The notes beneath the pieces were generated by a model. It was not told the DNA's origin and made no database searches. It saw nothing but the letters and a program-made list of their open reading frames with translations. From the IMG/VR virus record IMGVR_UViG_3300017788_000024, positions 1 to 62,463 of that record: a stretch of DNA of 62,463 nt; one strand, written 5' to 3'. The position numbers were made by a program, and so were the translations under genes. How positions within the stretch are numbered: the stretch's first letter is position 1; each line of letters begins with the position of its first letter. Shown here piece by piece: positions 37,966 through 62,463 of this stretch. This DNA comes from a virus. Lineage: Duplodnaviria; Caudoviricetes.

Positions 37966-40395
37966 TCAACTGAAGAAGTAGATTGACTTAGCGACTTCAT
38001 TGATGTCAAATTCATCTTCTCTTTCTGGAATCTGCGGTAACTTGATCTCATATTTCTTCTCAAGGTATGCCTTGAATTTCTCCAATGGGTTGCTCTTGTG
38101 TATCTGGATGAACTGCTGCTTGAGTATGCGATCCATGGCATCCACATGAGGAGCATAGGTTCCATATGAATCATGAACAAAACTGAATGCTCTTATTCCT
38201 TCAAGAAGCATGGATGATATTGTCATGAACATGTGAGCAGCATCCAAGGAATGAATGAAGTTTGGTGATATCGCAAGGAACTGTGCATCACCGTCAAGAT
38301 CATTGCTGAGCGTGGAGAAAACAAGTTGTTGCTTGTTGAACAACTCCGCATATGATATTCTTTCAATGATCTGGTTGTACACATGCTGAACAACAAAACC
38401 ACTGTCCGTCTCCCATATGAGGGGCTTATTCATTGCGTTGATGAGACGAGCGACTTCCCTAAGGTAGTCTTTGCCCTTGTTTGGTTCCTCCATGGTGCCA
38501 CGAAGACCGTCTTGCAATGCCCTGCTTAGTTCAACAATGGCACCACCACGCTCTTCTTTTGGCACCCAATCAACATGACCTTCTTCCTTGACATACTTCT
38601 GTATGCCATAGAAGGTGAGACCATACGAGTCGCACATGGTTGATCTCTTTGCAACCTTGCGAGGCAGACCATCATCCCAATGCGTAAGGAATTTGGTGTA
38701 CCACTCGTTGTCTGTATGTGTTTTAAAGATTTCATAAGTCTTTTGCGCGACGAATTGATAGAGATCCTGAGGCTTGTCGCTAGGCAATACATTGGTCAAC
38801 TTGGCAAGCCTTGAATCTCTTCTGATTGCAGCCCAATGCTGAACGCCATTGTTGGCACCGTCCTTTTGAACGGGCAACTGAGTCATGCCATCGGTTCGGC
38901 ACAACTCAAAGCATGCAGCAAGTCTTTGGAAGGATGGGTTCTTCTTCTTTGCATCGGACACCCACTCACGATTGTGGTATGGGTCTTCTGCAATGCCCCT
39001 TATCATATCCATGTTGTCATCAACCCATTTGACTCTCTCTTCATACGTCAGTTTGTCCTGATCAAAGAGATTGGCAGCATGAATCTTGAGCCACCATAGA
39101 CCGCGAGGAGTCTGCTTGATTGGCTCTGCAAAATGGATGAGGGCACGATCGAAGTCGATGCCTTGACAACTGAGGAGTTCACATACGGTGTATGCTCTGC
39201 CCCTGAAGTCCAAGGTATATGGCATGTAGAAGAAGTCGTTCTCAAGCATGTTGCGTGCAAGGGAGAGACGAACGAGCATGCGTGAGCGTGCCTGTTCCTC
39301 CTTGTACCATTCACCCCATGCTTCTGTTGATTCCGACATCCACCTTGCCTTCTCTTGCTTTGTCCCTTCTTCTGGAAAGGGACGGGAGAAGGCAAAGTCA
39401 TTGTATGTATGAGCAGGAAGGTTTGCAATCCTGTAGTCCTTGAAGAACATCGTCTTCATGACCTCATAGACTGATCTATTGATCGACCATTCGGTCATCA
39501 TCATTGCATTGATGCCGTCAAGCACCATGTCGGATGGCTTGGAATTGTAGTCCCTTGGATCACATCCGATGGGATGATATCTCTTTATCATCTTCTTTCT
39601 GATCCAAGGATTGAGGAAGCCTCCGTCCTTGGATCTTTCATGAGGAACAGGAGGACAAAGCATTGGTCTGTAGACCATGCTTCCTGTCTCAAGAACATCA
39701 TGCTTTTTGCTCAGTTCCTTGAGTACGTCAGGGGAAAAGGATACCAACAAGGATTTCTTGTTGCGTCCAGTCCATACCACCTTGCCTTCAAGAATGTCCG
39801 AAGCCAAGGCAATCCTGAGCATGTTGTGACCAAAGTCTTCCTTTTGTTTTGGGGTATACTTGTATATCTTGCCCATCTTCTTGGTGAATGCACGACACCT
39901 CTTGGGTGTCCAGTTCTTGATGAACTTGGACTGCCTAAGCCAGTCATCCTTGAACTTTTGCTTTGCTCTCTGGTAGGAGACAATGTTGATTACATTCTCA
40001 GATATGAGTTTTGATAGTGATTGTGCGGTAGGTGCAGAAAGAGGAACACCATGCACAAAGTCTATGTGTGTTATGTTGGATCTGGTAAGAAACAACTCAA
40101 TTACTGCCCTGATGGTTATGTCTGCCATCTTTGCAGCACCAATGGACAAGAGAGGAGGAAGCCATTCGGGATTCTTTGGTCCCTTGCAAACCTTGTCTAT
40201 CCATTGCTGGTAGAAGGGCGTGAGGTGAATGACGGCAGATTCCAGAAGCAACTGCTCTGGCTTGCCTTCGTCCTTAACCCTGTCCCATTCCTTCCAGTAC
40301 CGTTCAACTCCTGCGTTAAGCAGATCCTCTTCCCACAGGAGTTGCTTGTCGATTCTTAACTGCTTCTCAACTGAGTTGAGTTTGTCCCATAGCAT
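37966..40395 (-). CDS. T7-type single-subunit RNA polymerase (RNAP-1, full length)
   Basis: DFRGRAY, motif A KDGANNGVQH, PQDLY, motif B RKVAKRSTMCDSYG, PNFIHSLDAAH, motif C VHDSYGT, C-terminal YFFS. Confidence 0.98.
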   Translation of the reverse strand: MLWDKLNSVEKQLRIDKQLLWEEDLLNAGVERYWKEWDRVKDEGKPEQLLLESAVIHLTPFYQQWIDKVCKGPKNPEWLPPLLSIGAAKMADITIRAVIELFLTRSNITHIDFVHGVPLSAPTAQSLSKLISENVINIVSYQRAKQKFKDDWLRQSKFIKNWTPKRCRAFTKKMGKIYKYTPKQKEDFGHNMLRIALASDILEGKVVWTGRNKKSLLVSFSPDVLKELSKKHDVLETGSMVYRPMLCPPVPHERSKDGGFLNPWIRKKMIKRYHPIGCDPRDYNSKPSDMVLDGINAMMMTEWSINRSVYEVMKTMFFKDYRIANLPAHTYNDFAFSRPFPEEGTKQEKARWMSESTEAWGEWYKEEQARSRMLVRLSLARNMLENDFFYMPYTLDFRGRAYTVCELLSCQGIDFDRALIHFAEPIKQTPRGLWWLKIHAANLFDQDKLTYEERVKWVDDNMDMIRGIAEDPYHNREWVSDAKKKNPSFQRLAACFELCRTDGMTQLPVQKDGANNGVQHWAAIRRDSRLAKLTNVLPSDKPQDLYQFVAQKTYEIFKTHTDNEWYTKFLTHWDDGLPRKVAKRSTMCDSYGLTFYGIQKYVKEEGHVDWVPKEERGGAIVELSRALQDGLRGTMEEPNKGKDYLREVARLINAMNKPLIWETDSGFVVQHVYNQIIERISYAELFNKQQLVFSTLSNDLDGDAQFLAISPNFIHSLDAAHMFMTISSMLLEGIRAFSFVHDSYGTYAPHVDAMDRILKQQFIQIHKSNPLEKFKAYLEKKYEIKLPQIPEREDEFDINEVAKSIYFFS

Positions 40396-45520: not shown

Positions 45521-45556
45521 AGGAAAGAAGCCTAGGATATTTCTACCCTAGGCTTC
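45521..45556 (-). terminator. terminator-like hairpin
   Basis: GAAGCCTAGG/CCTAGGCTTC stem, GAAA loop, short TTTCCTT tail. Confidence 0.55.
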
Positions 45557-45794
45557 ACGGCTATGGTAACCTATAAGACCTCTCTGCCAACAAGGTCTTA
45601 ACTCCAATTACTTTTCTAGCAGTAATTGAACGGCATTTTATGTGTCCTGCTATTTATATCCCGCCTACAGGCTAGGTTGCTTGCGGTCCCCTTCTGGCTA
45701 GAACCAAGGCTAGGGATAGCCTCAAGAATTCTAGGGTATTTCTACCCTAGAATCCTCAACCCGTCTATAAGCCGGACGGGGACGGGGCGGGGTC

Positions 45795-49195: not shown

Positions 49196-49265
49196 GATGT
49201 ACCTATCTCCTAGTTGACCCAGTTAGTGAAAGATCTGTGGTTGGGTCAGTTCACAGACCTTAGTT

Positions 49266-49328
49266 GCTGCGACAGTGCAGCCCAAGGACTCCCCCATTGC
49301 TGGGGGAGCCAAGGGCAGCACTGTCGCA
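49266..49328 (-). promoter_or_regulatory. hairpin element copy 1 (upstream of RNAP-2)
   Basis: gctgcgacagtgcagc plus ctccccca-ttgc-tgggggag plus gcactgtcgca. Confidence 0.75.
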
Positions 49329-49732: not shown

Positions 49733-49790
49733 TGGTATCCTCCTTTGCCCTATAGTGTAATGCCATGCATTGGGCATGTGCATGACATGT

Positions 49791-49844
49791 GCTGTGACAG
49801 TACAGCCATGGCTCCCCTATTGCTAGGGGAGCCGAGGTTATACT
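49791..49844 (-). promoter_or_regulatory. hairpin element copy 2
   Basis: gctgtgacagtacagc-cat-ggctccccta-ttgc-taggggagcc. Confidence 0.8.
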
Positions 49845-50049: not shown

Positions 50050-50107
50050 TACACTCTCCTATTGCCCTACGGTGTCATGTTATGCATCGGGCATGTGCAT
50101 GACATTT

Positions 50108-50437: not shown

Positions 50438-50581
50438 TTATTTTGCGGTTTTCTTGGACTCCCTGAATGCTCTTGATGTGGGGGCACCCTTGGATCCCGG
50501 CTTGCGCATCTTTTCTCCAGATCCTGCCTTGATTCTCTTCCGTTTTGCGTGTATGTTGTCGTAAAGACCTCTTTTCTTCAT
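50438..50581 (-). CDS. small basic phage protein
   Basis: MKKRGLYDNIHAKRKRIKAGSGEKMRKPGSKGAPT... Confidence 0.75.
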   Translation of the reverse strand: MKKRGLYDNIHAKRKRIKAGSGEKMRKPGSKGAPTSRAFRESKKTAK

Positions 50582-50582
50582 G

Positions 50583-50837
50583 TCAGCACTTCCACTTTCT
50601 TCGTGCCTTGCATGCCCTCTTGTCCGGGGTAGCACGGCAATCGATGTCGAATTTCTTGATCTGACCTAGGTTGCGGGCACAAAAGGACTTCTTTCTTGGT
50701 CCCCCTCCGGGTTGCGGCGGCTTGAGGTTGGATCCGGTCTTTCGGTTGATCATGGACCTTCCCTTGGCGGTAAGCCCTCCGCTTGGATCTTTGCATCCAT
50801 TCTTGATGCTACATCCTTTCATATCTCCCTTGCTCAT
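50583..50837 (-). CDS. small basic phage protein
   Basis: GGLTAKGR...GSNLKPP...RKKSFCAR...ARRKWKC; TAATG coupling to the giant ORF. Confidence 0.75.
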   Translation of the reverse strand: MSKGDMKGCSIKNGCKDPSGGLTAKGRSMINRKTGSNLKPPQPGGGPRKKSFCARNLGQIKKFDIDCRATPDKRACKARRKWKC

Positions 50838-53800: not shown

Positions 53801-56800
53801 TTCTGTGTATGCTCCATACTTTTTTGCTATGTCTACGAAATTTTGCATGTTTCTTGCATACAGTTCAGCATGTTTTTTGGCATCCTCAAACATTTGATCT
53901 GTAAGTCTACCTCCCAAAGGAAGAGAATCTTTGCTTTCTGGTCTATCATAAAGAAGATAATCAAATGCACTCCTTTCAATCAGAATGCCTTGTTCTGTGT
54001 TATAGGTACTTCTTATGCGGTGTGAGTTTCTTACGACTGGTCTTGAAAACTGTTGAATATAGTTCAATGAGTGAAGGACTCCACCAACAGCACCACCATA
54101 TACATTTTGCCCCGATCCTTTTGTTGCATCTAGAAGAAAGCCTAGAGCCGCTAGGATTGGTTCAGATGATGCATAGGTGAGGTTTGCACTGTTTCCTCCC
54201 CCTATTCCATAGACTCCTCCTGTTCCAGGCTCGCCAATCTTTCTGGAAGTCCCATAGTACAAGACATCTGCAAGCCATTGCTTGATTCTTTTGCCTTTGC
54301 TTGGCAGGTCTCTGAGTATCCCGGCAATGCTGGCAATTTCTCCGCCCCTTCTGCCCCTAAGTGTTGCAACCTTTTCAAGAACAAAAGTAGCCAATGCTTT
54401 GTCTTCTGCCGCATTGCGTGGTTGTCTGCTTATTGTCATGTCTCCGTCAACAATACCAATCATTCCACTCATTTGTTTTAGATAATCTAATGTTGATTGT
54501 CCAAGAATAGTTCTTGATTTTGGACCAGATAAATATGGCTCGGTTTCTTCCACAAGTGAAGCAAATATTGCAGTCTGATCTTCATTCAATGTTTTGATTT
54601 GTTCAAGGTCGTTTCTAAGTGTTATCTTGTCGTGGAGTGTTTTTATGTCTGCCTCGGTCAACAGTGCTGATCCCTTCGGCAATTCAGTCAGTGGGTATGA
54701 GAATGATCTGGTTGCGATCTCTGCCAAGGCCCTAGACTTGCTATAGGTGTTTCCAAAATTGAACATTACCTCAATGGCATTGTCCATCAGTCTCATGGCT
54801 TCTGGGTTTTGATTTTTGAATACCTGCATTCTCTGTACAACGGATGAAGCCAATCTCTTTATTCTGTTGAACGCTCTTTCCCACCAACTGGCAGACTCAT
54901 CTGCAACAACATACTTGTCTCTTATTCTTCTTACATTTTCAATCACGCTCTTGTTGTTGATTGTTCTGGAAATAAGGATGAATGCTCCCCACTCAGCAAG
55001 GAACTCTTCTGGGTTTGTGGTATAGTGTTGGATCAGGTCGTTGATTTCCATGCGATCCCCAGAAAACATCGTTGTCACCATGTCTGTTATGGCATCCTTG
55101 CCAGAATTTGTCCTGAATGCAGTAAGGAACCCCTGATATACTTCACTATCTGTTTCAAGGTGTTGCATTCTTGCGATGTGGGATATTTCGTGGGCAAACA
55201 CTTCAAGTGCTTCTGGTGCTGCTCTCTTCTTCAGCAACTCTGGATTCAACTTGATTACAAACCTATCCTTAATCTGAAGTGATTTACCAGCACGCTCCAT
55301 GTTTGGGTCTAGTATTATGGATAGGTTGTTTGCAAACTCTTCGTTGTGGACAAGGATGATTCCAAGCATTCCCTTGTACAACTCGGCAGTCTCTTCCGAT
55401 ATTGCACCTTGTTTTACAAGGTCTTGAATGGCAATCTCAATCTTCTGTCCATCTACCCCGAAAGCACTTGTCAATCCATCTTCCTCCGCAAGAGAAAGGA
55501 CATCCTCATCCATTAGCCGGATTTCTTCTGTAGAATACTGGTGATTGGCTCTTTGTAGTGCCTTCTTTGCCTTGGTTACTTCCTTTGCATTGGTAATGTC
55601 AGTGACCCCAATGCTTTGAAGGACGCTGTTCAATACGTTTGGGATGTCTGCAATAGGTCCATTTAGTTCCACATATCTCTTGGCAGCATGGAAGTATTGG
55701 TTTCTGATCTCATCCCTATTTAAGGCTGAAAGATATGCCCCTGTATATTCTCTTGCCACGGAATAAAGGCTGTTTAGTTCCGCGTCACTCATGACATCGC
55801 CCACATATGCACGAAGTCTTCGTTTTGATGAGATGGTATTCTGGCCATCAACCTGTGCAAGGAGGATTACAGCGGGAATAATGTATTTGTTAGTTGAGTC
55901 TAGTAATGCACGCAGTTGCCTCCCTTCTTCCTCAAGACCATACATGTCTGCAAGTTGAATTGCTTGGTTGATCTTGGCTCCCCATGCCATATCAAGAGCC
56001 GTTCCTCTTGGATCACCATCCTTACCGGCAACATAATAACCTGCATCATATACCTCAAGAGGAAGACCAAAGTCACCACGCATTCTTGTGTTGTTGGTTG
56101 TCCTCAACTTGGTTCCTGCTCTTTGGTGAAGCAGGGCTAGGATGTCCATTTGATCTGCATACTCAAGTCTTTGCATCTCATAGAACTTTCTTCTCTCTGC
56201 ATTCATGAACTTCATGTTCTCATTGGTTGCAACTCCAACGTCCGACCCAAGTGCTGCTGCAATTTCAGCATTGTTGAAGAACACTTGGTTTCGGATCTGT
56301 GTGAACATTTTTTTAATGTCTTCAGGAGTAAGATGATACACGGCATTTGCACTTGTTCGTGAGGTATCGAATCTTATTAATCCACCAGATCTTACCTTTG
56401 GTGCCTTTCCAGATGATGTGTCTATTTTTGCTGCTTCCTCAAGGTTTTCAAAGTCAACCCTGTTCCCAATCTGCATTCCTCCATAATCATCAAGGAACAA
56501 GTAGAGATCAAAATCTCCATATGTACTCATTCTTTCCGACTGTAAGATCTCATCCAGAACTGCTTCTTGATATTGCAATGGAACAGAACTCAACAGCACA
56601 AATCCAGTGCCATCTTTTTCCAAGGAATCAAAGTTATCTGGGTCTACCTTTTTCATGTAGTTGGTTGCTATTTCCCTTCCGACAACCTCATACAGGACAC
56701 CGAAGATTACCCCCAAAGAGTCACGGCTTTGAACCGTAAGTGTTAGTATTCTTGTTTCTCTTTGGTCTGCGGCTGGATCTCCAGTTGCAAGCAAGTTGTT

Positions 56801-59800
56801 TGTTGGACTAAGACCGAGCGTCAATGGGCTGAGGCTATTGATTCCTTGCTGTGCCATGAATTTGAGGAAATCAATGTAGTACATTCCCTTTATCTTTCTT
56901 CCTTCAATTCCTACCATCCTGCCAAACTCAAGATAACTTCTTGACTCATGTGAAACATTGTCGTGGAAAGACCATAGGTTGGTGAGGTCTTGATACATTG
57001 CAAGAACGTTTCCTTGAGCCTCTTTGTATTCCGTTTGTTCTTCAATGCCTCCGCCCCTTAACTTCAACCTTTCCATCTTTCTTAAGAACGGATTGATAAT
57101 TGCATTGGTTATTTTCCAAATAGTAAACAGTTTGGCAATGTCTCCAGATTCAAGAATGTCTCGATATCCATTGGTTTCAGCAAACTTCTCAAGCACATGC
57201 ATTAGGTTGTTTGCTCTTAGTTCAATTCGTCTTGTTGAACTTCCGGTTGTCATTTCATATGTTGAATCAAATGGTGTTTCATAAACATAAGGTGTCTTGG
57301 ATCCCTTGTATCTATTCTTGTATCCTCTTGATTCCTTTGGAATAACATCGTTGATTGTGGCAATTTCTCGATCTGGTCTTTGTGCCCTTGTTTTTCTTGT
57401 TTCTTCCAACTCCCTTGCATAGAACATTTCTTGTAGTGAGAAGATTCCTCTTTCCTCCCATGGAATATCTGAGTATGGTGCCCTGAATGCAAGAAGTCCC
57501 TTTAGATTTGAATTGGAACCGGGATTGTATTCTGATTGAAGAGCATCACCCATGTTTCGTGATGGATCAAGAAGGAATCTAGCGGAGTTTCTAAGTAGTC
57601 CTCCATTGCTTCTTCTTAGGTCTCTTACATTATCTGGAAGAGTGGCCTCTTCTCCCATTCCTCTTGCCCACGCACGATTTTCTCTTTCAGACTTTCTCAG
57701 CCATTCTGTCATAAATCCTTGTCTGTTTTCCGAGTCTAATGAATAGCCGCCAAACTTTGGAGCATAGGATTTTGAAAGTTGGAGGGCTATGTGTCTTGCA
57801 ATAAGTTTTTCAATCTCTGTCTCCGCTTGCTCTCTCCCTAGTTTTCCAAGATTGTTTCTACCAAATTCCCACATTGCGTATGGGTTGTCATCCTTATTGT
57901 CTGGTGTGTTTTCTCTGACAATGGAGGACAACGCAGAGTTCATTGGTTGGTGCCTGTGCCCATGCATGTAAAGACGCTCACCACTTGAGTCAAGTCCCAT
58001 TAGAAAGAATATGTTGAAATCCTCAAAGCCCAGAAGATCTTTCTCCTCTAGATCTCTTCCCATAATTCTGGAATGCTCTTCAATCCTTCCCCTAATTCCC
58101 TCGGCCTCTGTTTCCCTAAGGCGATATGGAACCCTTTGAAGAGCATTAAGGGCCGTTAGGACTAGAGTAGACTTGTATGCTTCCTCATTGCCCATAAGGA
58201 TAACATTGAGTTCTCTCATTTGCTCGCTGTTAGAAGTTCTCCCACCAATTTTCTTCATGTATTTGTTTGCTTTGTTGATTCTTTTTTCGTAGGTTTTGAA
58301 AACTTCTTCTTCTGTTCTTCGTTCCATGGCAGCAATAAACTTGATTCTCTCTTTCAATGCTTCTTCGACTTGATTAAGAGAAAACATGCTCTTGCCTGCC
58401 TCGACAAACCCATTCTTGATTGCAATTTCCCGCAGTCTTGTATGCCATCCCGTAGATGCATATACCTCTCTTAACTCATTTGCAATTTTTTCAGATAGTT
58501 TTCTTCTTCCTGCTTCATCTAGGTTTCCAATGGCAGAATCCAATATGTTAAATTGGAGAAATGCTTTGGCATTCATGAGATGCTCTGCAATAAATCTTGC
58601 ATCAACACCATTCATGTTGTTTTCATTTTTTAATGCCCAATCTCTAATTCCTTCATGTACTGCCTTAAGACCACCCATGTAAAGTCTAGCAATCACTGCG
58701 ATTTTAAATGCATCTCGTCCTTTACCACTATCTAAGAACTCTCTTAGCCTATCTGTTTGCTCTGCGTTTTTTGTGTCTCGCCTTGCAATGTAAGCCAACT
58801 TGATTTTTTCAAGGTTGTCCCTAAGAATATCAACTGCCATTTGATATCTATCTTGTGGATTGTCCTTGAATTCCACTTCTTCAAGCATCCTATCCAATGC
58901 TGATCCGTCCTCATCCAAATACATAAGGGTAAGGGCAGCCATGTGGTGAATGCCGTTCATGTCGAAGTCGAAGTAATTGCTTAGGCTATATCCACCCTCT
59001 TTATAGGCAGCCTTTCCTCTTTCTAAAGACTTGTAGATCAGATCTGTTGTTAGGATTGGATATGTCATAACATGTGCAAACAGAGGCCCCAAACCAGATA
59101 GCAATGCTGCTCCTGATAGGGAACCCGGTGATAATGCATCGTCTGCAAATATTTTTCCTTTAACCTCCTCATTCAAGAAGATCCGTGATCCGGGAGCATA
59201 TGAAACCGAGTCGTGTTGCCACATCATTAGAAGTTCAGGAAGATCAAGCAAGGCTTCTATTGCTCTTCTTCGGTATTCATTCATATCTGGAAGTCGATTC
59301 AGCAGTCCTCTATTGTTTGTGTTTGGAAGAAGTTGCAAAAGCAATTCACTTATTTCTGCAATGACCTCATCAGGGTTTTCTCTCTGTTTCTTGTAGGCAT
59401 CGATGATTGCTGTTGCCGCTTCCCTGCTGCTTATTGGTGAACTAAGAATGTGACTAATTCTTTGCCTAAGTCTGTAGTCGCCATATGCAGTTTCAATTTC
59501 AGACAACGATCGTGGGAAAATATGGTTGACTTCCCCAAGCAAAGGCAGGCGGTAAATCATCGGCATGTCTACCTTATGAGATGCATCTGAAGCCTTGGCT
59601 ATTTCCTCGGCCCGCATTGCATCTGTCCCTCTTGCTATTATCCCCTCAGCATGGAGAGATTTCCTGAATCCCTGAGGTGTTCTTGTTATGATCTGAATGA
59701 CGCCCCTGCCTAGGCTGTTGCCAATCGCAAAGTCAATTTTTCCGTTTCCAAAATCAACAATATCAAACTCCTTGTGGCTGGAGTATTTTTTGATGGTGTG

Positions 59801-62463
59801 GACAATTAGGTTAAAGATGAAATCCTGTTCTGATTCTAGGCTATCCTTAGGAACAAAACCAACAATCTCAGCCAACTCAGAAAGGTCAAGTCTTGATTCC
59901 TTAATCTGATCCATGGCACCCTTGATAATTGAGTCAATGTATTGGTTTTTCTGTGTCTCTTTGCTTCCCTCAGCAAAGTTGATCCCGGGTATTCTTCCGC
60001 CTGTCTCAGTTATACCTCTTATGCTGATAGGAAGCCTGCTCCCTGCTTTTTCATATGCTGCCTTGTTGTTTTCTGAAGAAGCCTTTGAGTTCTCTCTTGC
60101 AATGTTTATTGCAGTGAGGTAAGCCTGTTCTTCTGGCGTAACCCCTCGTTCGGCAAGGTCCATCATTGCCTTGCCAAATGCCCTTGTGTTTGGGGAATAC
60201 TCAAGAGAAATAGCCATCAATGACATGATGATGGGTTGTGCCTTGTCTAGGTCAATTACAACCTTGGCAGAGCCATCTCTAGGAAGAACCCCATCAAATG
60301 CTGTTGCCATCTGCCTTCCCTCAGGAAGTGCGCGCCAATTAGAAACAGCATCCTCAACCCCACCAAAGATTTGGGATTGATATGATGCAAGACTCCAAGT
60401 TGGAATGATTGGCTTGAGTGCGACGGAGTAGATGTTTCCATCCGCATTCCTGATTCTTACGGCTGCTCCATCTCTTTGTCTTAGTTCCTTGAGAGTCTGG
60501 ATGGTAAGCCTTCCGTCAGACATGGAGTATTCATAAAGAAGCCTTCTTGCATCGGACTCACTCAATTCATTCATTTCCTCTACAATGACTTCCTTTTCAC
60601 CATCACTCATCTTTGAGTTGTCTATCTTAGACAAGTCTCTAATTGTAATGGTTCTTCCCATTGATCTCTTCTTCCACAATGTTGGCATATAACCTCGCCC
60701 AACCTTGCTTTCAAGGATGTTGAGTGCATCTGCTGTGTTGCCTAGGCTATACATCCTGCTTTTTGGTGTTGTGTCTGTGCTTGTTGTGCTGTCAAATGCT
60801 CTTAGGTTTTGGAAGATATCAACGCTTCTTAATACAATTCTAGCAGCAAGTTGTCTTGCTTCTGGTGTTCCAATTGTTTCTGCCATTGCAAGGAGGTCAA
60901 ATCCGTTTCCATTGAATGTTACAAGCATCTTTCCTTGGTTCTGCATGTCTTCAATCTCTTGAAGCATGCTCATTAGTTCTTCATTTGTGAATATGTTGCC
61001 ATCTCCACTGGATCTTACGGACTCAGGGTTTTCTGAATTATTCTCATCCATAAGAATGATTGTGTGAATGCCACCTTGATTGTCGAGGTGGGTCTCAATA
61101 TCAAAAGAGAATACTGTAGCAGTCTTTGCCCATTCAACTGGGTCCGTAAACTCCCTTGAGTTAAAGACCTCATCGCTTAACCCAAGATCCTTAAGAACGC
61201 TCTTGGCAATGGACACCATCTCGGCATGAGACATGTGTGCATTTCGTGTGTTTCCTCTGTCCCATCTAATAGCACTCTTAAACAAGACGGAAGCATCGAC
61301 ATCATCTAGTTTCTCAATCTCACTTAGGATCTTGCTAATAAAGGCAACATCAACAAACTTACCAAATTGAGGAAGTCTTCTCAGTGTTTCCAATCTATAG
61401 AGAAATGACCTTAGTTTGCCGTATAGAACCTCGCCCTCATTCTCTGAAAATAGATTGGCTGGTGGTATGATTCCCGGTGTAGATAGGACACCTGCGTCCT
61501 TAATTGTAATGGTTGGAACAATAGGATAATCCCCATCTGCCTCTTCAATAGAGGCCCCCTCTGTCTCAGGATCAATAGATGTTTCAGAGATTTCCGTTAG
61601 CGACTGCTTGTCTGAGAACTCCATATCCAAAATAAATCGTTCTCTAGATCCTGCATACTCAAAGGCAAGTGCCTTGTATTCAGAAAACAAAGCATCAACA
61701 TCCTTGCGTGTCAATGGCTTGTTCTTCTCCACCCGTTGCATGACAAAGTTGTCACCGAATAGTTTTCCTACCACAACAGCATCAACTGTGCTTGACTCTT
61801 TGAACAGTCCCTCGATAACTTGATTCTTGAATTGAATGTCTTCTGAGACCTCCGCAAGTTGCATAGCCAATTGCCTTCCAGTTGCTGGAGCATTGTCGAT
61901 AATGTTGTTAATTGCCACTGCTCTATTAATACCAAACTTAGACAATTCAGAGATCAATCTTCTTCTGTCCATCTCCAATCTTGATATTGCCCCACCCATT
62001 GGAGAGTCGTTTGTTTTTTCTATAAGTTTGGCCAAACTTTGTTTTAGTGTTTCGCTAATACTACCTGTCTCTTCTTTTATTTTTTCTATTTGCTTTTTGA
62101 TTCTAGCCGCTTCTTGTTTTAACCTTCTCTTTTGTGCCTCAGGAGATGAATCGATCTTTCTATTTAGTGCTTCTAATGAATTTCCTAGTTTTGTTAGTCT
62201 TTCCGCATTTTTTCTTAACTTGTCTTTTATCCTTTTTTTCTCATTGTCTAGACCTTTAGTTTCATTCTCCCTGAGGGTTTTATATGTTATGAGAGACTCT
62301 TCAATGATCCTCAGTTCTGCATCCAGTTCTTTTATCTTCCTGTAATCCCTTCCAAGTTTTGTGTTCTGCTTGTCAATGCGTTCTATCTTTCTTCTAATAA
62401 GACGCATCCTTCTTGCGCCTTTGGTGTTTCCTGCTGCTGCCAGTTCCTTCTCACGTTGAGCAA
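50837..62463 (-). CDS. giant multidomain protein, probably virion-borne: coiled coil, DEDD exonuclease, T7/N4-like RNAP, HExxH metallopeptidase; 5'-partial
   Basis: Frame stays open to the window edge (..AQREKELAAAGNTKGARRMRL); FDIETH/TFNGNGFD/YSMSD; DFDMNGIHH, PQDRY, RDAFKIAVIARLYMGG; AHEISH...EEFLAE. Confidence 0.85.
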   Translation of the reverse strand, partial: AQREKELAAAGNTKGARRMRLIRRKIERIDKQNTKLGRDYRKIKELDAELRIIEESLITYKTLRENETKGLDNEKKRIKDKLRKNAERLTKLGNSLEALNRKIDSSPEAQKRRLKQEAARIKKQIEKIKEETGSISETLKQSLAKLIEKTNDSPMGGAISRLEMDRRRLISELSKFGINRAVAINNIIDNAPATGRQLAMQLAEVSEDIQFKNQVIEGLFKESSTVDAVVVGKLFGDNFVMQRVEKNKPLTRKDVDALFSEYKALAFEYAGSRERFILDMEFSDKQSLTEISETSIDPETEGASIEEADGDYPIVPTITIKDAGVLSTPGIIPPANLFSENEGEVLYGKLRSFLYRLETLRRLPQFGKFVDVAFISKILSEIEKLDDVDASVLFKSAIRWDRGNTRNAHMSHAEMVSIAKSVLKDLGLSDEVFNSREFTDPVEWAKTATVFSFDIETHLDNQGGIHTIILMDENNSENPESVRSSGDGNIFTNEELMSMLQEIEDMQNQGKMLVTFNGNGFDLLAMAETIGTPEARQLAARIVLRSVDIFQNLRAFDSTTSTDTTPKSRMYSLGNTADALNILESKVGRGYMPTLWKKRSMGRTITIRDLSKIDNSKMSDGEKEVIVEEMNELSESDARRLLYEYSMSDGRLTIQTLKELRQRDGAAVRIRNADGNIYSVALKPIIPTWSLASYQSQIFGGVEDAVSNWRALPEGRQMATAFDGVLPRDGSAKVVIDLDKAQPIIMSLMAISLEYSPNTRAFGKAMMDLAERGVTPEEQAYLTAINIARENSKASSENNKAAYEKAGSRLPISIRGITETGGRIPGINFAEGSKETQKNQYIDSIIKGAMDQIKESRLDLSELAEIVGFVPKDSLESEQDFIFNLIVHTIKKYSSHKEFDIVDFGNGKIDFAIGNSLGRGVIQIITRTPQGFRKSLHAEGIIARGTDAMRAEEIAKASDASHKVDMPMIYRLPLLGEVNHIFPRSLSEIETAYGDYRLRQRISHILSSPISSREAATAIIDAYKKQRENPDEVIAEISELLLQLLPNTNNRGLLNRLPDMNEYRRRAIEALLDLPELLMMWQHDSVSYAPGSRIFLNEEVKGKIFADDALSPGSLSGAALLSGLGPLFAHVMTYPILTTDLIYKSLERGKAAYKEGGYSLSNYFDFDMNGIHHMAALTLMYLDEDGSALDRMLEEVEFKDNPQDRYQMAVDILRDNLEKIKLAYIARRDTKNAEQTDRLREFLDSGKGRDAFKIAVIARLYMGGLKAVHEGIRDWALKNENNMNGVDARFIAEHLMNAKAFLQFNILDSAIGNLDEAGRRKLSEKIANELREVYASTGWHTRLREIAIKNGFVEAGKSMFSLNQVEEALKERIKFIAAMERRTEEEVFKTYEKRINKANKYMKKIGGRTSNSEQMRELNVILMGNEEAYKSTLVLTALNALQRVPYRLRETEAEGIRGRIEEHSRIMGRDLEEKDLLGFEDFNIFFLMGLDSSGERLYMHGHRHQPMNSALSSIVRENTPDNKDDNPYAMWEFGRNNLGKLGREQAETEIEKLIARHIALQLSKSYAPKFGGYSLDSENRQGFMTEWLRKSERENRAWARGMGEEATLPDNVRDLRRSNGGLLRNSARFLLDPSRNMGDALQSEYNPGSNSNLKGLLAFRAPYSDIPWEERGIFSLQEMFYARELEETRKTRAQRPDREIATINDVIPKESRGYKNRYKGSKTPYVYETPFDSTYEMTTGSSTRRIELRANNLMHVLEKFAETNGYRDILESGDIAKLFTIWKITNAIINPFLRKMERLKLRGGGIEEQTEYKEAQGNVLAMYQDLTNLWSFHDNVSHESRSYLEFGRMVGIEGRKIKGMYYIDFLKFMAQQGINSLSPLTLGLSPTNNLLATGDPAADQRETRILTLTVQSRDSLGVIFGVLYEVVGREIATNYMKKVDPDNFDSLEKDGTGFVLLSSVPLQYQEAVLDEILQSERMSTYGDFDLYLFLDDYGGMQIGNRVDFENLEEAAKIDTSSGKAPKVRSGGLIRFDTSRTSANAVYHLTPEDIKKMFTQIRNQVFFNNAEIAAALGSDVGVATNENMKFMNAERRKFYEMQRLEYADQMDILALLHQRAGTKLRTTNNTRMRGDFGLPLEVYDAGYYVAGKDGDPRGTALDMAWGAKINQAIQLADMYGLEEEGRQLRALLDSTNKYIIPAVILLAQVDGQNTISSKRRLRAYVGDVMSDAELNSLYSVAREYTGAYLSALNRDEIRNQYFHAAKRYVELNGPIADIPNVLNSVLQSIGVTDITNAKEVTKAKKALQRANHQYSTEEIRLMDEDVLSLAEEDGLTSAFGVDGQKIEIAIQDLVKQGAISEETAELYKGMLGIILVHNEEFANNLSIILDPNMERAGKSLQIKDRFVIKLNPELLKKRAAPEALEVFAHEISHIARMQHLETDSEVYQGFLTAFRTNSGKDAITDMVTTMFSGDRMEINDLIQHYTTNPEEFLAEWGAFILISRTINNKSVIENVRRIRDKYVVADESASWWERAFNRIKRLASSVVQRMQVFKNQNPEAMRLMDNAIEVMFNFGNTYSKSRALAEIATRSFSYPLTELPKGSALLTEADIKTLHDKITLRNDLEQIKTLNEDQTAIFASLVEETEPYLSGPKSRTILGQSTLDYLKQMSGMIGIVDGDMTISRQPRNAAEDKALATFVLEKVATLRGRRGGEIASIAGILRDLPSKGKRIKQWLADVLYYGTSRKIGEPGTGGVYGIGGGNSANLTYASSEPILAALGFLLDATKGSGQNVYGGAVGGVLHSLNYIQQFSRPVVRNSHRIRSTYNTEQGILIERSAFDYLLYDRPESKDSLPLGGRLTDQMFEDAKKHAELYARNMQNFVDIAKKYGAYTESLIPPKDMIALRVNNSYLAETTAETASSFVNSLTTAYRNKILSNMRQDGIADSYSLYLSGGFFQIDKTISTETGVLSSIQVFYASINKDMGGTKVLTRGQRLILDEIEEFASNIWAEKRPNDKQAKFNFKSKIKYSPYSGEFLSIQETLNDAAIRLLRMAKSGATYKSIFKSLNPEQLDIVINELKNRVDTSDYSVVSHATDILDGRLSSIFHGSSSPPKYMKESIDNMGYSVASLHARKHLMTHGHGTIMPDSSSLDLTANDIFRQDNGLTPEQGRILQEGFTIDLRSIIVGMERNISRSAYNNKAIQDLTGVKGLSFSWLIKAIQKAQSDSDWDIVLKEVKRKHDLAIGAATKIEETEGSGAENILVKTADVVTTTMWGPNRNAATMLNEGTIGAATTAMFGGNHISLYKDMLTGMAGLLVNVFSRRYGNRLLNRSLWTTVPDALFDMDTATRGFMEHHLIDYDEIPFDARERLGMNRRNLGAVGASWWRRLRDSHLIAEPALRAALMRQGQRQLLKRLGKMEEYLEFIKNYKGPKNQDMYENAIREVGTERILDFAGTEKVLLQLMWESGVLSDKNIKALKYIIDRYGTSKQGITRREFLDIGNIQIQMEMDLNRTLWEEVPESGGLIKNDLYEALAAVGRFQKAYARQTIVEGNTLDRPTKGDPKSFLFNLYRSFPKLFVTQFALETYGRTTPMLLAGRLLVAAAADIIYNFGLMFLAGVISDDDLERISRGNINGEDITKIASVVARNPFISNRMLFGTLAQLAIISGSTVFTGKNQFTNPRIMAAGLPPSFMAMVSGFSRAGRIVNDAVNQDETFDSAALADLLLRLVPAIGPTVRYGITRSIDPNYQAGRKTKSSSNGSSFSPVSIANHIMDKDHMDEYKLVRDLLKELFPTGYSNLSRSMPPFLDALIPPVQAASPQATQTPTTPQNPTQGNTVAPTQPQAPTTPTPPKNVQVLTPWGSKKASARASNPSTPPPQLGGP

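What the first reader, a model, noticed from the sequence alone, without database searches (positions are those of the whole stretch)
37966..62463. Three single-subunit RNA polymerase-family proteins in one T7-like genome: candidate three-tier transcription cascade
Seen: a full T7-type RNAP (37966-40395); a second divergent RNAP with all catalytic motifs but only 586 aa (47435-49195); and RNAP motifs A and B inside a >3,870-aa protein (about 58670-58975). Known: T7-like phages normally encode one RNAP and use host RNAP for early genes, whereas N4 injects a ~3,500-aa virion RNAP that reads hairpin promoters and turns on a small RNAPII. Inference: the injected giant RNAP transcribes the hairpin-led early genes including RNAP-2; RNAP-2 transcribes the middle block down to RNAP-1; RNAP-1 transcribes replication and late genes. 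This could make transcription independent of host RNAP.
Basis: partly seen in the sequence, partly recalled or inferred. Interest (0 to 1): 0.95.

Follow-up and report, generated by a model that had tools for sequence, protein, structure and literature searches.

The report
T7-like phage with three polymerase-type proteins
An uncultured T7-like phage carries two clear phage-type RNA polymerases plus a 4,000-residue, almost cysteine-free virion-type protein with polymerase motifs in an unusual order, so it may start its own transcription much as phage N4 does.

Summary
RNAP1 (37966-40395, 809 aa) and RNAP2 (47435-49195, 586 aa) are true single-subunit RNAPs (Pfam PF00940, E 6e-84 and 9e-16). 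The giant ORF (50837 to the window end; 4,000 aa in full) has invariant motifs A and B at 58670-58975, with T7 spacing.

The giant's polymerase identity is supported only by profile-profile comparison (hhalign P 1e-4 to 5e-4 against N4-vRNAP-like and T7-like profiles; reversed and shuffled controls P >= 0.2) and by language-model neighbours (0.89, a lead). Pfam, PHROGs and PDB searches find no polymerase. Two AlphaFold2 models failed (pLDDT 48 and 51).

The blocks are not in the canonical order: the TxxGR block follows motif B, and motif C is unresolved.

Context favours an ejected protein. The gene ends a module that starts with a weak T7-gp14-like gene after the terminase gene, and it has 1 Cys in 4,000 aa (N4 gp50: 0 in 3,500).

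Four double-hairpin repeats precede the early genes. They are conserved in relatives and show compensatory changes.

The trio occurs in all 3 related records that are at least 90% complete.

The three-tier cascade is plausible but untested. I rate it a new variant of the N4 strategy in a T7-like genome.

The parts
37966..40395 (-). RNAP1: full-length T7-type single-subunit RNA polymerase, 809 aa
   Evidence: Pfam PF00940 E 6e-84 and phrog_414 E 8.8e-152. DFRGR, motifs A, B and C are intact. It is 64-84% identical in five related records.
47435..49195 (-). RNAP2: short, divergent single-subunit RNA polymerase, 586 aa, without the T7 N-terminal domain
   Evidence: Pfam PF00940 E 9.4e-16 and phrog_414 E 8.6e-44, matching profile positions 375-771 of 816 only. 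At most about 26% identity to any GenBank phage. Motifs are in canonical order. It is 24-63% identical in relatives.
50837..62463 (-). Giant gene, 5' end cut by the window; 3,874 aa here, 4,000 aa in full; candidate ejected virion protein
   Evidence: It has 13 full-length relatives, 0 Cys in 3,874 aa and 1 in 4,000. In relatives it is the last gene of a module that follows the terminase gene.
57413..59590 (-). Polymerase-like region of the giant protein (first sequence of alignments A4/A5, 726 aa)
   Evidence: hhalign against the N4-like vRNAP profile P 1.9e-4, with controls P >= 0.2. ESM Atlas neighbours for residues 100-600 score 0.89 and are vRNAP_dom_2 / RNA_pol clusters. AlphaFold2 pLDDT was 50.6.
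58943..58975 (-). Motif A (Y-x-D-x4-G-x-H-H); candidate catalytic Asp at 58967-58969
   Evidence: D, G and H are invariant in 13 sequences. The block aligns to T7 D537..H544.
58670..58717 (-). Motif B ([RK]-x3-K-x7-Y-x2-G), the O-helix equivalent
   Evidence: K, Y and G are invariant. The block aligns to T7 R627/K631/Y639 and to N4 'RGIAKNPLTITIYGSG'.
58844..58852 (-). D-x-Y block between motifs A and B (aligned to T7 'QDIYG' and N4 'NDLYQ')
   Evidence: The D is invariant. See the hhalign alignments.
58133..58159 (-). 'ALNALQR' block, aligned to T7 'AINIAQN' and N4 'ALKAEQA'. It lies downstream of motif B.
   Evidence: hhalign.
57968..57991 (-). T/DxxGR-like block (D-S-S-G-E-R-L-Y; E-T-A-S-G-R in distant relatives). 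It lies downstream of motif B, which is a non-canonical position.
   Evidence: The R is invariant. In the restricted hhalign, P is 1.7e-4 against T7 residues 300-500 and 9.6e-5 against N4 mini-vRNAP residues 310-520.
59210..59215 (-). Invariant His-Asp after a hydrophobic run: motif C candidate 1, upstream of motif A
   Evidence: Invariant in 13 sequences. The best local alignment puts it on T7 H811-D812 and on N4 F-D951, but P is only 0.066 and 0.2.
58538..58540 (-). Invariant Asp in 'h-h-D-x-x-h-G': motif C candidate 2, about 45 aa after motif B
   Evidence: Invariant. It aligns to T7 motif C with P 0.72 and 0.2, which is not significant.
60797..61105 (-). DEDD-type exonuclease / RNase H-like domain in the N-terminal third of the giant protein
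   Evidence: Pfam RNase_H_2 E 5.9e-4, 20.3 bits, below the 22-bit cut-off. PF13482 is precomputed on 4 of 13 relatives. The Exo II block aligns to T7 DNA polymerase with P 0.017.
55169..55315 (-). HExxH (SprT-like) metallopeptidase-like motif in the giant protein
   Evidence: Pfam SprT-like E 0.006, below the cut-off. H2550, E2551 and H2554 of P0004 are invariant.
50297..50341 (-). Double-hairpin repeat, copy 1 (10-bp stem with GCAA loop, then a 5-bp stem)
50106..50150 (-). Double-hairpin repeat, copy 2
49789..49833 (-). Double-hairpin repeat, copy 3
49264..49310 (-). Double-hairpin repeat, copy 4, about 70 nt upstream of the RNAP2 start codon; it carries compensatory stem changes
50363..50444 (-). 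82-nt non-coding block between the late genes and the first hairpin; candidate genome-end, packaging or replication signal
   Evidence: About 89-90% identical in L005, L017, L013 and L010, although the proteins there are 34-56% identical.
45527..45556 (-). Terminator-like hairpin followed by a T-rich tail; candidate end of the early unit
   Evidence: Conserved in L004, L005 and L017.
45724..45750 (-). Second copy of the terminator-like hairpin
1099..1776 (-). 225-aa gene after the terminase gene; weak T7 gp14-like internal virion protein; first gene of the module that ends with the giant gene
   Evidence: Its L004 homologue (77% identical) hits PF24072 T7_gp14 at E 2.9e-4 (below the cut-off) and phrog_805 'internal virion protein' at E 0.0029.
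2..1102 (-). First 367 aa of a gene that is 1,672 aa long in relatives (second gene of the same module); it runs off the window

Best explanation
The window is most of a roughly 69-kb genome of an uncultured T7-like podophage. Its clade carries three members of the single-subunit RNA polymerase family.

Shown:
- RNAP1 and RNAP2 are true ssRNAPs with intact catalytic motifs.
- The 4,000-aa protein holds a very divergent ssRNAP-type module. Its invariant residues include the motif A Asp, the motif B Lys and Tyr, a TxxGR-type Arg and two further Asp.
- The blocks of that module stand in a non-canonical order (A-B first, then the ALNxxQ/TxxGR block).

Inferred:
- The giant protein is made late, packed in the head with the products of the three genes before it (a gp14-like protein of about 225 aa, then proteins of about 1,670 aa and 900 aa) and ejected into the cell, like T7 gp14-16 and N4 gp50-52.
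- Once inside, its polymerase module transcribes the 4.6-kb early unit. That unit starts at four conserved double-hairpin elements (50341 to 49264) and ends at terminator-like hairpins (about 45.7 and 45.5 kb). It includes RNAP2.
- RNAP2, a minimal enzyme comparable in size to N4 RNAPII, then transcribes the middle genes down to RNAP1.
- RNAP1 transcribes the replication and structural genes, as in T7.

My odds for the steps:
- two real RNAPs: 0.98
- giant protein is an ejected virion protein: 0.8
- its module derives from an ssRNAP: 0.75
- it is catalytically active and makes the early RNA: 0.5
- the hairpins are its promoters: 0.4
- the whole three-tier order as stated: 0.3
For: RNAP1 and RNAP2.

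Giant module:
- Invariant motif residues with T7 spacing in 13 sequences down to about 20% identity.
- hhalign P 5.3e-4 and 0.026 (A2 against T7-like profile); 5.9e-4 and 2.6e-3 (A4 against N4-like profile); 1.9e-4 (A5 against N4-like profile); 1.7e-4 and 9.6e-5 for the TxxGR block alone.
- Null controls: reversed profiles give P 0.41-0.6; the best of 15 column shuffles per profile gives 0.2 and 0.46.
- In the 4,000-column comparison with the T7-like profile, the only two alignments with P < 0.5 fall on these same two regions.
- ESM Atlas neighbours are all N4-vRNAP or RNA_pol clusters, scoring 0.80 for 1,101 aa and 0.89 for the core. These scores are leads only.

Ejected-protein reading:
- In 5 of 6 related loci the order is terminase gene, gp14-like gene, the roughly 1,670-aa gene, then the giant gene. 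Where sequence continues (L003, L004, L005) RNAP2 follows, and in L004 RNAP1 follows too.
- The giant has 1 Cys in 4,000 aa, against 242 in 15,211 aa (1.6%) in the other window proteins. N4 gp50 has 0 in 3,500.

Hairpins:
- There are 4 copies where 0 are expected by chance.
- They are present in relatives whose giant protein is 34-50% identical, and in a similar architecture in a record at about 22% identity.
- 4 of 16 pairs change on both sides, 97.7% of cells are paired, 0 of 500 shuffles reach the covariation score, and slid controls pair 41-54%.
- DNA folding z-score is -4.6 on both strands.
- No minus-strand sigma-70-like site lies between 49200 and 50450.

Trio: all 3 records at least 90% complete have both a frame of about 812 aa and a frame of about 600-637 aa matching PF00940. 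Five of the 10 records searched have both, and 8 of 10 have at least one.
Against: - No sequence-to-profile method sees a polymerase in the giant protein. Pfam at E <= 1 on the whole protein and at E <= 10 on 8 region sequences, PHROGs, PDB phmmer and two PDB profile searches and tblastn against 50,697 phage records are all negative.
- Against the N4-like profile, the full-length alignment A1 gave nothing significant (best P 0.1, in a different region).
- Both AlphaFold2 models are of low confidence (pLDDT 48.2 and 50.6, no beta strands). Foldseek on the second gave 0 matches at E <= 0.001. The fold is therefore untested.
- The block order differs from every known ssRNAP. Motif C is not identified (P 0.066-0.72 for the two candidates).
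- ESM scores are below the tool's 0.9 line, and the shared-feature counts (154-164) are below 170.
- The hairpins are larger than N4 promoters. One G-T pair on the coding strand would be a wobble pair in RNA but a C-A mismatch on the template strand, which slightly favours an RNA-level element.
- No promoter classes for RNAP2 or RNAP1 were found.
Confidence: 0.5

Rival explanations
1. The giant protein is an ejected internal virion protein (the counterpart of T7 gp16). Its polymerase-like module is a relic, or serves another nucleic-acid task such as binding or pulling in the DNA. Host RNAP makes the early RNA. The double hairpins act in the RNA, for example in processing, stability, antitermination or translational control. 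RNAP2 and RNAP1 then divide middle and late transcription between them.
For: - Gene position and cysteine depletion fit any ejected protein.
- The non-canonical block order and the unresolved motif C could mean a non-catalytic remnant.
- One G-U-compatible pair lies on the coding strand.
- The hairpins sit between the small early ORFs, as RNase III sites do in the T7 early region (recalled, not tested here).
- A DEDD-exonuclease-like domain and an HExxH motif show that the protein carries other enzyme-like parts.
Against: - The residues that stay invariant at about 20% identity are the ones an active polymerase needs: the motif A Asp, the motif B Lys and Tyr, the TxxGR Arg and two further Asp.
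- No minus-strand sigma-70-like site lies upstream of the early genes. This is a weak point: the scan uses an E. coli-type consensus and the host is unknown.
- The hairpin sequence, not only its pairing, is kept nearly unchanged between phages whose proteins are 34% identical. That suggests a sequence-specific phage reader rather than a host RNase.
- The stems of 10-13 bp seem short for RNase III (recalled).
Confidence: 0.27
2. The polymerase likeness of the giant protein is a chance resemblance of short motifs in a long, helix-rich protein. The phage has two RNAPs, not three. One of them (probably RNAP2, read by host RNAP) is simply an extra early enzyme.
For: - All direct family searches are negative.
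- hhalign probabilities never exceed 47%.
- Several hhalign variants were tried, so the P values are somewhat optimistic.
- A 4,000-aa protein offers many places for a match.
- AlphaFold2 predicts only helices and coil.
Against: - Two independent profile families (T7-like and N4-like) pick the same giant residues and put them on the homologous functional motifs.
- The motif residues are among only 24 invariant columns of 726.
- The spacing within motifs A and B is identical to T7.
- All reversed and shuffled controls give P >= 0.2.
- The language-model neighbours point to the same family out of thousands of possible ones.
Confidence: 0.15
3. The double-hairpin repeats and the 82-nt block are not promoters but genome-end elements: terminal-repeat, packaging or replication-origin signals. 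They happen to lie next to the early genes. This can hold together with any reading of the giant protein.
For: - The 82-nt block and the repeats sit exactly between the last late gene and the first early gene, where a T7-like genome would have its ends.
- Their nucleotide conservation is far above that of the flanking genes.
- Hairpins form equally well on both strands.
Against: - Each copy stands directly upstream of an ORF (64 aa, 68 aa, 146 aa and RNAP2). That is the pattern of promoters or RNA leaders.
- Copy number varies (1 to at least 4) between relatives.
- The one related record with terminal repeats (G006) has its contig ends far from this region. That says nothing either way if the assembly is circularly permuted.
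Confidence: 0.15

Closest known systems
Coliphage N4 (Schitoviridae) transcription scheme: virion RNAP gp50, then heterodimeric RNAPII (gp15/gp16), then host RNAP with N4SSB
   Same: - A giant late-gene protein (3,500 against 4,000 aa) that is almost free of cysteine (0 against 1) and lies next to other candidate ejection-protein genes.
- An ssRNAP-type module in the middle of the protein.
- Repeated hairpin elements in front of the early genes. N4 has three hairpin promoters (PMC4496689, passages read).
- A small ssRNAP without the T7 N-terminal domain is encoded in the early region.
   Different: - There is no detectable sequence homology to gp50 by BLAST, Pfam vRNAP families or PHROGs.
- The polymerase blocks are in a different order.
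- The hairpins have 10-13-bp stems with 4-6-nt loops plus a second hairpin. N4 has 5-7-bp stems and 3-nt loops.
- RNAP2 is one chain, not a heterodimer.
- The third tier would be a phage T7-type RNAP rather than host RNAP.
- The replication and structural genes and the single-strand gene order are T7-like, not N4-like.
T7-like phages (Autographiviridae): one RNAP plus internal virion proteins gp14, gp15 and gp16
   Same: - RNAP1 is full length, 27-28% identical to RNAPs of isolated autographiviruses.
- The primase-helicase, DNA polymerase, exonuclease, portal, scaffold, capsid, tail tube A/B and terminase genes stand in T7 order on one strand.
- A weak gp14-like gene opens the module that ends with the giant gene.
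   Different: - A second ssRNAP gene is present.
- The genome is about 69 kb rather than about 40 kb.
- The internal-protein module follows the terminase gene. Its last member is three times the size of gp16 and carries polymerase motifs instead of a recognisable transglycosylase.
- Hairpin repeats stand where T7 has its host promoters (recalled).
Other large cysteine-free podophage proteins proposed as virion RNAPs (Stenotrophomonas phage StenR_269; split gp50-like genes of Alteromonas AltAD45 phages)
   Same: The proposal rests on large size, lack of cysteine, helical predictions and low-confidence AlphaFold models (PMC10747016, passages read). In the AltAD45 phages it rests on BLAST likeness to the ends of gp50 (PMC3821669, passages read).
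   Different: - Here the catalytic motifs themselves were found and tested against null controls.
- The genome also has two ordinary ssRNAPs.
- I did not compare these proteins with the giant protein directly.
Permuted palm-domain polymerases (birnavirus and tetravirus RdRps with motif order C-A-B); recalled from the literature, not read here
   Same: If the invariant His-Asp upstream of motif A is motif C, the order C-A-B would be the same kind of internal permutation of a palm domain.
   Different: Those enzymes belong to a different polymerase family and use an RNA template. Here a further block (TxxGR) is also displaced, and the permutation is inferred from sequence only.

Membership tests
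Single-subunit (T7-type) RNA polymerases, Pfam PF00940: RNAP1 | Pfam RNA_pol match above the curated cut-off, with motifs T/DxxGR, A, B and C in that order | tested here: met
   282.9 bits against a 22-bit cut-off. DFRGR, DGANNGVQH, RKVAKRSTM..Y and VHDSYG are seen in the alignments.
Single-subunit (T7-type) RNA polymerases, Pfam PF00940: RNAP2 | Pfam RNA_pol match above the cut-off, with the motifs in canonical order | tested here: met
   58.1 bits against a 22-bit cut-off. DFRYR, QQDQTASG, RKTAKGFIMPMVYS and IHDSFG are present. The T7 N-terminal domain is not matched: the phrog_414 match covers positions 375-771 of 816.
Single-subunit RNA polymerases: giant protein | A family profile (Pfam PF00940, PHROG RNAP families) recognises the sequence | tested here: not met
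   No RNAP family at E <= 1 (whole protein) or at E <= 10 (8 region sequences) in Pfam, and none in PHROGs.
Single-subunit RNA polymerases: giant protein | Motif A (Asp, then Gly at +5 and His at +8) and motif B (R/K-x3-K-x7-Y) | tested here: met
   The residues are invariant in 13 sequences. They are aligned to T7 D537/R627/K631/Y639 and to N4 motif B by hhalign. The residue numbers of T7 and N4 are recalled.
Single-subunit RNA polymerases: giant protein | T/DxxGR block upstream of motif A | tested here: not met
   A TxxGR-like block is present (P 1.7e-4 and 9.6e-5) but lies about 330 aa downstream of motif A. The 200 aa upstream of motif A give P >= 0.21.
Single-subunit RNA polymerases: giant protein | Motif C (His-Asp hairpin) downstream of motif B | tested here: inconclusive
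   There are two invariant candidates: H-D upstream of motif A (P 0.066 and 0.2) and an Asp 45 aa after motif B (P 0.2-0.72). No A-B-C signal lies downstream of the TxxGR block (P >= 0.23).
Single-subunit RNA polymerases: giant protein | Right-hand palm/fingers/thumb fold | tested here: inconclusive
   Two AlphaFold2 jobs gave pLDDT 48.2 and 50.6. Foldseek against the PDB gave 0 matches at E <= 0.001.
N4-type virion RNA polymerase (Schitoviridae gp50) | Sequence homology to gp50 (Pfam PF21867, PF21894, PF21624; BLAST) | tested here: not met
   Searches were negative. Only profile-profile matches at motif B and TxxGR and ESM neighbours below 0.9 point that way.
N4-type virion RNA polymerase (Schitoviridae gp50) | Protein over 3,000 aa, cysteine-free, encoded among late genes next to ejection-protein genes | tested here: met
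   4,000 aa with 1 Cys. It is the last gene of the module after the terminase gene, which opens with a weak gp14-like gene.
N4-type virion RNA polymerase (Schitoviridae gp50) | Packed in the virion and injected; rifampicin-resistant early transcription | not testable with these tools
   The sequences are uncultured.
N4-type virion RNA polymerase (Schitoviridae gp50) | Early promoters are DNA hairpins with a 5-7-bp stem and a 3-nt loop | tested here: inconclusive
   Conserved, covarying hairpins precede the early genes. However, they have 10-bp stems, 4-nt loops and a second hairpin. Whether they act in DNA or in RNA is unknown.
T7 gp14-gp16 internal virion (ejection) proteins | A module of a small gp14-like gene followed by large genes; recognisable gp14, gp15 or gp16 families | tested here: inconclusive
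   PF24072 T7_gp14 E 2.9e-4 (21.3 bits, cut-off 27) and phrog_805 E 0.0029 for the first gene. No family was found for the 1,672-aa, 899-aa and giant proteins.

The most novel reading that the evidence does not exclude
A deep clade of T7-like phages has replaced the last internal virion protein by a 4,000-residue ejected enzyme. Its single-subunit RNA polymerase domain is sequence-permuted, either as A-B-C-TxxGR (as if the two N4 RNAPII subunits were fused in reverse order) or as C-A-B-TxxGR. This enzyme reads conserved double-hairpin DNA promoters at the genome end and starts a cascade of three phage polymerases (virion enzyme, then minimal RNAP2, then T7-type RNAP1). A 69-kb podophage would then be fully independent of host RNA polymerase, and the clade would link the T7 and N4 transcription strategies.
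Probability: 0.25. Interest if true: 0.9.

Novelty: new variant of a known kind. Interest (0 to 1): 0.75.

Why it matters
If it holds, T7-type genomes can use the N4 trick of bringing their own polymerase. That would also give a small phage whose whole programme runs on three single-subunit polymerases, without host RNAP. It would make a long-standing question testable: how virion RNAPs arose, from internal ejection proteins or from T7-type enzymes.

A permuted single-subunit RNAP would be a new topology for this fold.

It would also supply three new orthogonal polymerase and promoter sets, one of them hairpin-dependent, of possible use in vitro.

Even on the cautious reading, two separate ssRNAP genes in one T7-like genome is unusual, as is a conserved, covarying double-hairpin repeat that is more conserved than the proteins around it.

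Tried and rejected
- **Direct family searches on the giant protein.** Pfam, PHROGs, PDB phmmer, PDB profile searches with A1 and A5, and tblastn against GenBank phages found no polymerase. They gave only coiled-coil noise, weak RNase_H_2 and weak SprT-like hits.
- **Structure.** AlphaFold2 on 1,101 aa (15-row alignment) and on 726 aa (13 rows, more diverse) gave pLDDT 48.2 and 50.6. Foldseek against the PDB on the second model gave no match at E <= 0.001 and meaningless top hits. I draw nothing from these models.
- **Family A DNA polymerase instead of RNAP.** I considered this because of the upstream exonuclease-like domain. hhalign of A5 against a 3-sequence PolA profile gave P 0.37. That profile did not detect T7 RNAP (P 0.14) or N4 vRNAP (P 0.53) either, so the control has little power. 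Motif A has Gly where family A DNA polymerases have the steric-gate Glu (recalled), which fits an RNAP.
- **A canonical TxxGR upstream of motif A.** A 'PNxNNR' run lies 114 aa before the motif A Asp. It has no support (P >= 0.21).
- **A second A-B-C set after the TxxGR block.** None was found (P >= 0.23).
- **Rfam.** Only three tRNAs were found in 43000-51000. No known family covers the hairpins.
- **Promoter classes for RNAP1 and RNAP2.** Exact 11-mers and repeat families gave only a 25-nt repeat (2 exact copies plus 1 diverged copy) and a duplicated dUTPase coding piece. This is not enough to define promoters.
- **Genome ends.** The window's own genome record is the window itself. The terminal repeats of G006 lie far from the early region and may only reflect a circular assembly.
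- **Hairpin pair count.** I dropped two rows (both copies from L069, record G002) because their stems were out of register in alignment A6.
- **Wrong frame.** In one search I picked the wrong frame for the G005 RNAP2 row. Ignore that row.
- **Literature.** Five searches listed no paper on a T7-like phage with two ssRNAPs plus a giant polymerase-like protein, or on a permuted ssRNAP. The library is limited to open-access papers, and supplements were closed.

Full report
**Layout of the window.** All long ORFs are on the minus strand. Read in that direction, the window holds:
- the giant ORF (62461 to 50837, open at the window end)
- two small basic ORFs
- a 1.2-kb leader with small ORFs
- RNAP2 (49195-47435) and small ORFs
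- three tRNA genes (Lys-ttt, Arg-tct, Ile-tat)
- thymidylate synthase and RNAP1 (40395-37966)
- a T7-ordered set: primase-helicase, DNA polymerase, exonuclease, dUTPase, ribonucleotide reductase, portal, scaffold, capsid, tail tube A and B, large tail and fibre proteins, and the large terminase subunit (3453-1789)
- two more genes, the second running off the window at position 2

This is a T7-like genome plan. The window is also the whole of its own genome record. An identical giant protein of 4,000 aa sits on a 69,158-base contig in the protein database, so about 6.7 kb are missing from the window.

**The two ordinary polymerases.** RNAP1 (809 aa) matches Pfam RNA_pol at E 6e-84 and phrog_414 over its whole length at E 8.8e-152. 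Its best relatives among 50,697 GenBank phage records are autographivirus RNAPs at 27-28% identity.

RNAP2 (586 aa) matches RNA_pol at E 9.4e-16 (58 bits, cut-off 22). It matches only positions 375-771 of the 816-position phrog_414 profile (E 8.6e-44), so it lacks the T7 N-terminal domain. No GenBank phage protein is more than about 26% identical. It is 25% identical to RNAP1 over 165 aa (E 3e-7) and has only weak BLAST matches to N4 gp15 (E 2e-4) and gp16 (E 0.003). Both proteins have DxRxR, motif A, motif B and HDS in the canonical order.

**The giant protein: direct searches.** Pfam, PHROGs, a PDB sequence search, two PDB profile searches and tblastn against GenBank phages find no polymerase. 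The only hits, all below cut-off, are:
- an RNase_H_2 (DEDD exonuclease-like) domain at residues 453-555 of the window protein, precomputed on 4 of 13 relatives
- a SprT-like HExxH motif at residues 2383-2431

**The giant protein: motifs.** I collected 13 full-length relatives at 24-100% identity. I also fetched loci from IMG/VR and metagenome contigs, including a second group at only about 22% identity.

In a 13-sequence alignment of the 726-aa central region (A5, first row window:57413-59590:-), only 24 columns are invariant. Among them:
- D208, G213 and H215 (D-x4-G-x-H, motif A)
- D247 (a D-x-Y block)
- K296, Y304 and G307 ([RK]-x3-K-x7-Y-x2-G, motif B)
- R539 (in D-S-S-G-E-R-L-Y, or E-T-A-S-G-R in the distant group)
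- H126-D127 after a hydrophobic run
- D351 in h-h-D-x-x-h-G

The spacing within motifs A and B equals that of T7 RNAP.

**The giant protein: statistics.** I built two reference profiles in the script box. One holds 9 T7-type RNAPs: T7, RSB3, VEN, PM16, LUZ100, RNAP1 and three RNAP2 sequences. The other holds 8 N4-type mini-vRNAP regions from N4 and seven other schitoviruses. The hhalign results were:

| Query | Reference profile | P value | Region aligned |
|---|---|---|---|
| A2 (8 rows) | T7-like | 5.3e-4 | 'ALNALQR...DSSGERLY' on T7 312-443 (AINIAQN...DWRGRVY) |
| A2 | T7-like | 0.026 | motif A, D-x-Y and motif B on T7 530-650 |
| A2 | N4-like | 0.0054 | motif B |
| A4 (12 rows) | N4-like | 5.9e-4 | D-x-Y plus motif B |
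| A4 | N4-like | 2.6e-3 | ALNxxQ plus TxxGR on N4 'TRVGR' |
| A5 | N4-like | 1.9e-4 | 201 columns from D-x-Y through the fingers |
| A5 | T7-like | 0.0087 and 0.12 | TxxGR block, then A-B |
| A5 residues 440-640 | T7 300-500 | 1.7e-4 | TxxGR block alone |
| A5 residues 440-640 | N4 310-520 | 9.6e-5 | TxxGR block alone |

Controls:
- Reversed references and a reversed query gave a best P of 0.41-0.6. Fifteen column shuffles per reference gave best P values of 0.2-1.0 (T7-like) and 0.46-0.97 (N4-like).
- The positive control, T7-like against N4-like, gave P 1.2e-10 for TxxGR-A-B but only 0.027 for motif C.

Results against my reading:
- With the full 4,000-column alignment, the T7-like profile still picked the same two regions (P 0.0029 and 0.28). 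The N4-like profile gave nothing significant: its best hit (P 0.1) was elsewhere, and motif B reached only P 0.14.
- hhalign probabilities never exceeded 47%.
- I ran about ten variants, so the P values are somewhat optimistic.

The ESM Atlas feature search gave N4-vRNAP or RNA_pol clusters for all listed neighbours. The score was 0.80 for the 1,101-aa region and 0.89 for residues 100-600. By the tool's own calibration these are leads, not evidence.

**The giant protein: order of the blocks.** In T7 and N4 the order is ALNxxQ, T/DxxGR, A, B, C. In the giant protein it is:
1. H126-D127
2. motif A (208)
3. motif B (292-307)
4. D351
5. ALNxxQ (about 480)
6. TxxGR (about 535-541)

The 200 aa upstream of motif A show no likeness to the TxxGR region (P >= 0.21). 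The 1,000 aa after the TxxGR block show no A-B-C set (P >= 0.23). The displaced order is therefore what the data support.

Motif C is open:
- The His-Asp block looks most like 'hhhIHDS' of T7-type enzymes and 'hxhHDA' of some schitovirus vRNAPs. It aligns there with P 0.066 and 0.2.
- D351 aligns to T7 motif C with P 0.2-0.72.

If D351 is motif C, the order A-B-C-TxxGR is a cyclic permutation. That is what one would get by fusing the two subunits of an N4-RNAPII-like enzyme (gp15 with TxxGR, gp16 with A-B-C) in reverse order. If H-D is motif C, the order C-A-B recalls the permuted viral RdRps (recalled).

Two AlphaFold2 jobs gave pLDDT 48.2 and 50.6 with no strands, and Foldseek found nothing.

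**Is the giant protein an ejected virion protein?** In five of six related loci with upstream sequence (L001-L005), the genes before the giant gene are the large terminase subunit, a homologue of window ORF 1099-1776 and a homologue of window ORF 2-1102. In the sixth (L006) only the terminase was matched.

In L004 the series is terminase, 226 aa, 1,672 aa, 899 aa, then the giant protein (3,946 aa). The 226-aa protein hits T7_gp14 (E 2.9e-4, below cut-off) and phrog_805 'internal virion protein' (E 0.0029).

The giant gene therefore closes a late module that begins like the T7 internal-protein module. It is not the first gene of the genome, as the window alone suggests.

The giant protein has 0 Cys in 3,874 aa here and 1 (an invariant Cys near residue 4) in 4,000. 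Its 12 close relatives have 1-2, and four distant ones have 1-5. The other window proteins have 242 Cys in 15,211 aa (1.6%). N4 gp50 has 0 in 3,500.

Lack of cysteine has been pointed out for N4 vRNAP and used as an argument for other putative vRNAPs (PMC3821669 and PMC10747016, passages read). N4 ejects gp50 with gp51 and gp52 (PMC13434306, abstract read).

**The early leader.** Between the last late ORF and RNAP2 lie four copies of a 45-nt element (4 found, 0 expected). Each has a 10-bp GC-rich stem with a GCAA loop, then a 5-bp stem 4-6 nt further on. Each stands just upstream of an ORF (64, 68 and 146 aa, then RNAP2).

- The same element was found in 10 of the 17 loci held at that time (a pattern search allowing up to 5 substitutions). 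Several of those loci are copies of the same contigs. They include phages whose giant protein is 34-50% identical.
- A record at about 22% identity has two copies of a similar double hairpin (13- and 12-bp stems sharing GCTCCC/GGGAGC, then GTTGC/GCAAC), and another has two copies of an 11-bp-stem hairpin.
- On 12 copies (11 distinct), 4 of 16 pairs change on both sides and 97.7% of cells pair. None of 500 shuffles reaches the covariation score, and slid controls pair 41-54%. Two rows were dropped, as explained under Tried and rejected.
- Both DNA strands fold into the two hairpins, with z about -4.6.
- One G-T pair lies on the coding strand.
- No Rfam family matches the element.
- No minus-strand sigma-70-like site lies in 49200-50450.
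- Upstream of the first copy, an 82-nt block (50363-50444) is about 89-90% identical in four relatives.
- Terminator-like hairpins at about 45.7 and 45.5 kb, conserved in relatives, would end a 4.6-kb early unit. A third copy follows the capsid gene.

N4 early promoters are three hairpins with a 5-7-bp stem and a 3-nt loop, extruded by supercoiling (PMC4496689, passages read). The elements here are analogous in place and number but differ in form. Whether they act in DNA or in RNA is not known.

**Conservation of the trio.** PF00940 was searched in the 10 records that hold relatives of the giant protein.
- All 3 records at least 90% complete (G001, G006, G009) have both a frame of 812-815 aa and a frame of 600-637 aa that match.
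- Two incomplete records (G002, G004) also have both.
- Three have only the short one.
- Two fragments have none.

RNAP1 is 64-84% identical across the clade. RNAP2 is only 24-63% identical, similar to the giant protein's region (20-80%). Motifs A and C and the motif B Lys and Tyr are kept in all RNAP2 rows that were read in the right frame. The motif B Arg is lost in two of them.

**What is known and what is new.** The scheme of an injected giant ssRNAP, then a small ssRNAP, then a third polymerase is N4's (PMC4496689). The genome body is T7's. I found no paper describing a T7-like phage with two ssRNAP genes plus a polymerase-like giant protein, or a permuted ssRNAP (searches; open-access library only; supplements closed).

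I therefore rate it a new variant of a known kind. The cascade itself (which enzyme reads which genes) remains an inference, with odds of about 0.3. The more modest claim, that the giant protein is an ejected protein with an ssRNAP-derived module, has odds of about 0.6-0.75.

Noticed in passing
window 13316-16945 (-): This 1,209-aa ORF, between the tail tube B gene and the fibre gene, has 60 cysteines (5%). That is the opposite extreme to the giant protein. Its only hit is a weak match to the Phage_T7_tail N-terminal domain (E 3.6e-4).
   Followed up: partly
window 44873-45327 (-): Three tRNA genes (Lys-ttt, Arg-tct, Ile-tat) lie between the early and middle genes. The listed ORF 45021-45374 overlaps tRNA-Ile (45251-45327) and is probably not a gene.
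   Followed up: yes
window 50363-50444 (-): This 82-nt non-coding block, rich in G and C runs, is about 89-90% identical in relatives whose proteins are 34-56% identical. It is a candidate genome end, packaging site or origin.
   Followed up: partly
window 20556-20582, 45527-45556, 45724-45750 (-): A family of hairpins (CTAGGGTAGAAATAyCCTAG type) followed by T-rich tails. One copy lies right after the capsid gene, where T7 has its main terminator (recalled), and two lie at the end of the early region.
   Followed up: partly
window 20605-20629 and 20903-20927 (-); diverged copy near 43.82 kb: An exact 25-nt repeat flanks an 83-aa ORF after the capsid gene (2 found, 0 expected). A related sequence lies in the middle region. 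It is a candidate phage promoter.
   Followed up: partly
window 46001-50000 and 8001-10000: GC content is 0.545-0.559 in the early region and 0.608 at 8-10 kb, against about 0.41-0.49 elsewhere.
   Followed up: no
window 60797-61105 and 55169-55315 (-): The giant protein also carries a DEDD-exonuclease-like domain and an invariant HExxH motif. Both hits are below the Pfam cut-offs, and their roles in an ejected protein are unknown.
   Followed up: partly
residue 4 of the full-length giant protein (outside the window; P0004 and relatives): The only cysteine of the 4,000-aa protein lies in a conserved N-terminal 'M-x-P-C-S-P-E'. It is invariant in all 13 relatives.
   Followed up: no
window 50583-50837 and 50438-50635 (-): Two small, very basic ORFs follow the giant gene. 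They match PHROGs of unknown function, including the C-terminal ends of much longer family profiles (E 4e-19 and 1.2e-24).
   Followed up: no
window 28474-28495 and 43680-43701: This exact 22-nt duplicate lies at the 3' end of the dUTPase gene and again inside a 57-aa ORF in the middle region. It looks like a duplicated coding piece, not a promoter.
   Followed up: partly
window 7425-7478 and 46714-46819: Short tandem repeats: 2 x 27 nt upstream of the 359-aa gene, and 2 x 53 nt inside the early ORF 46516-46851.
   Followed up: no
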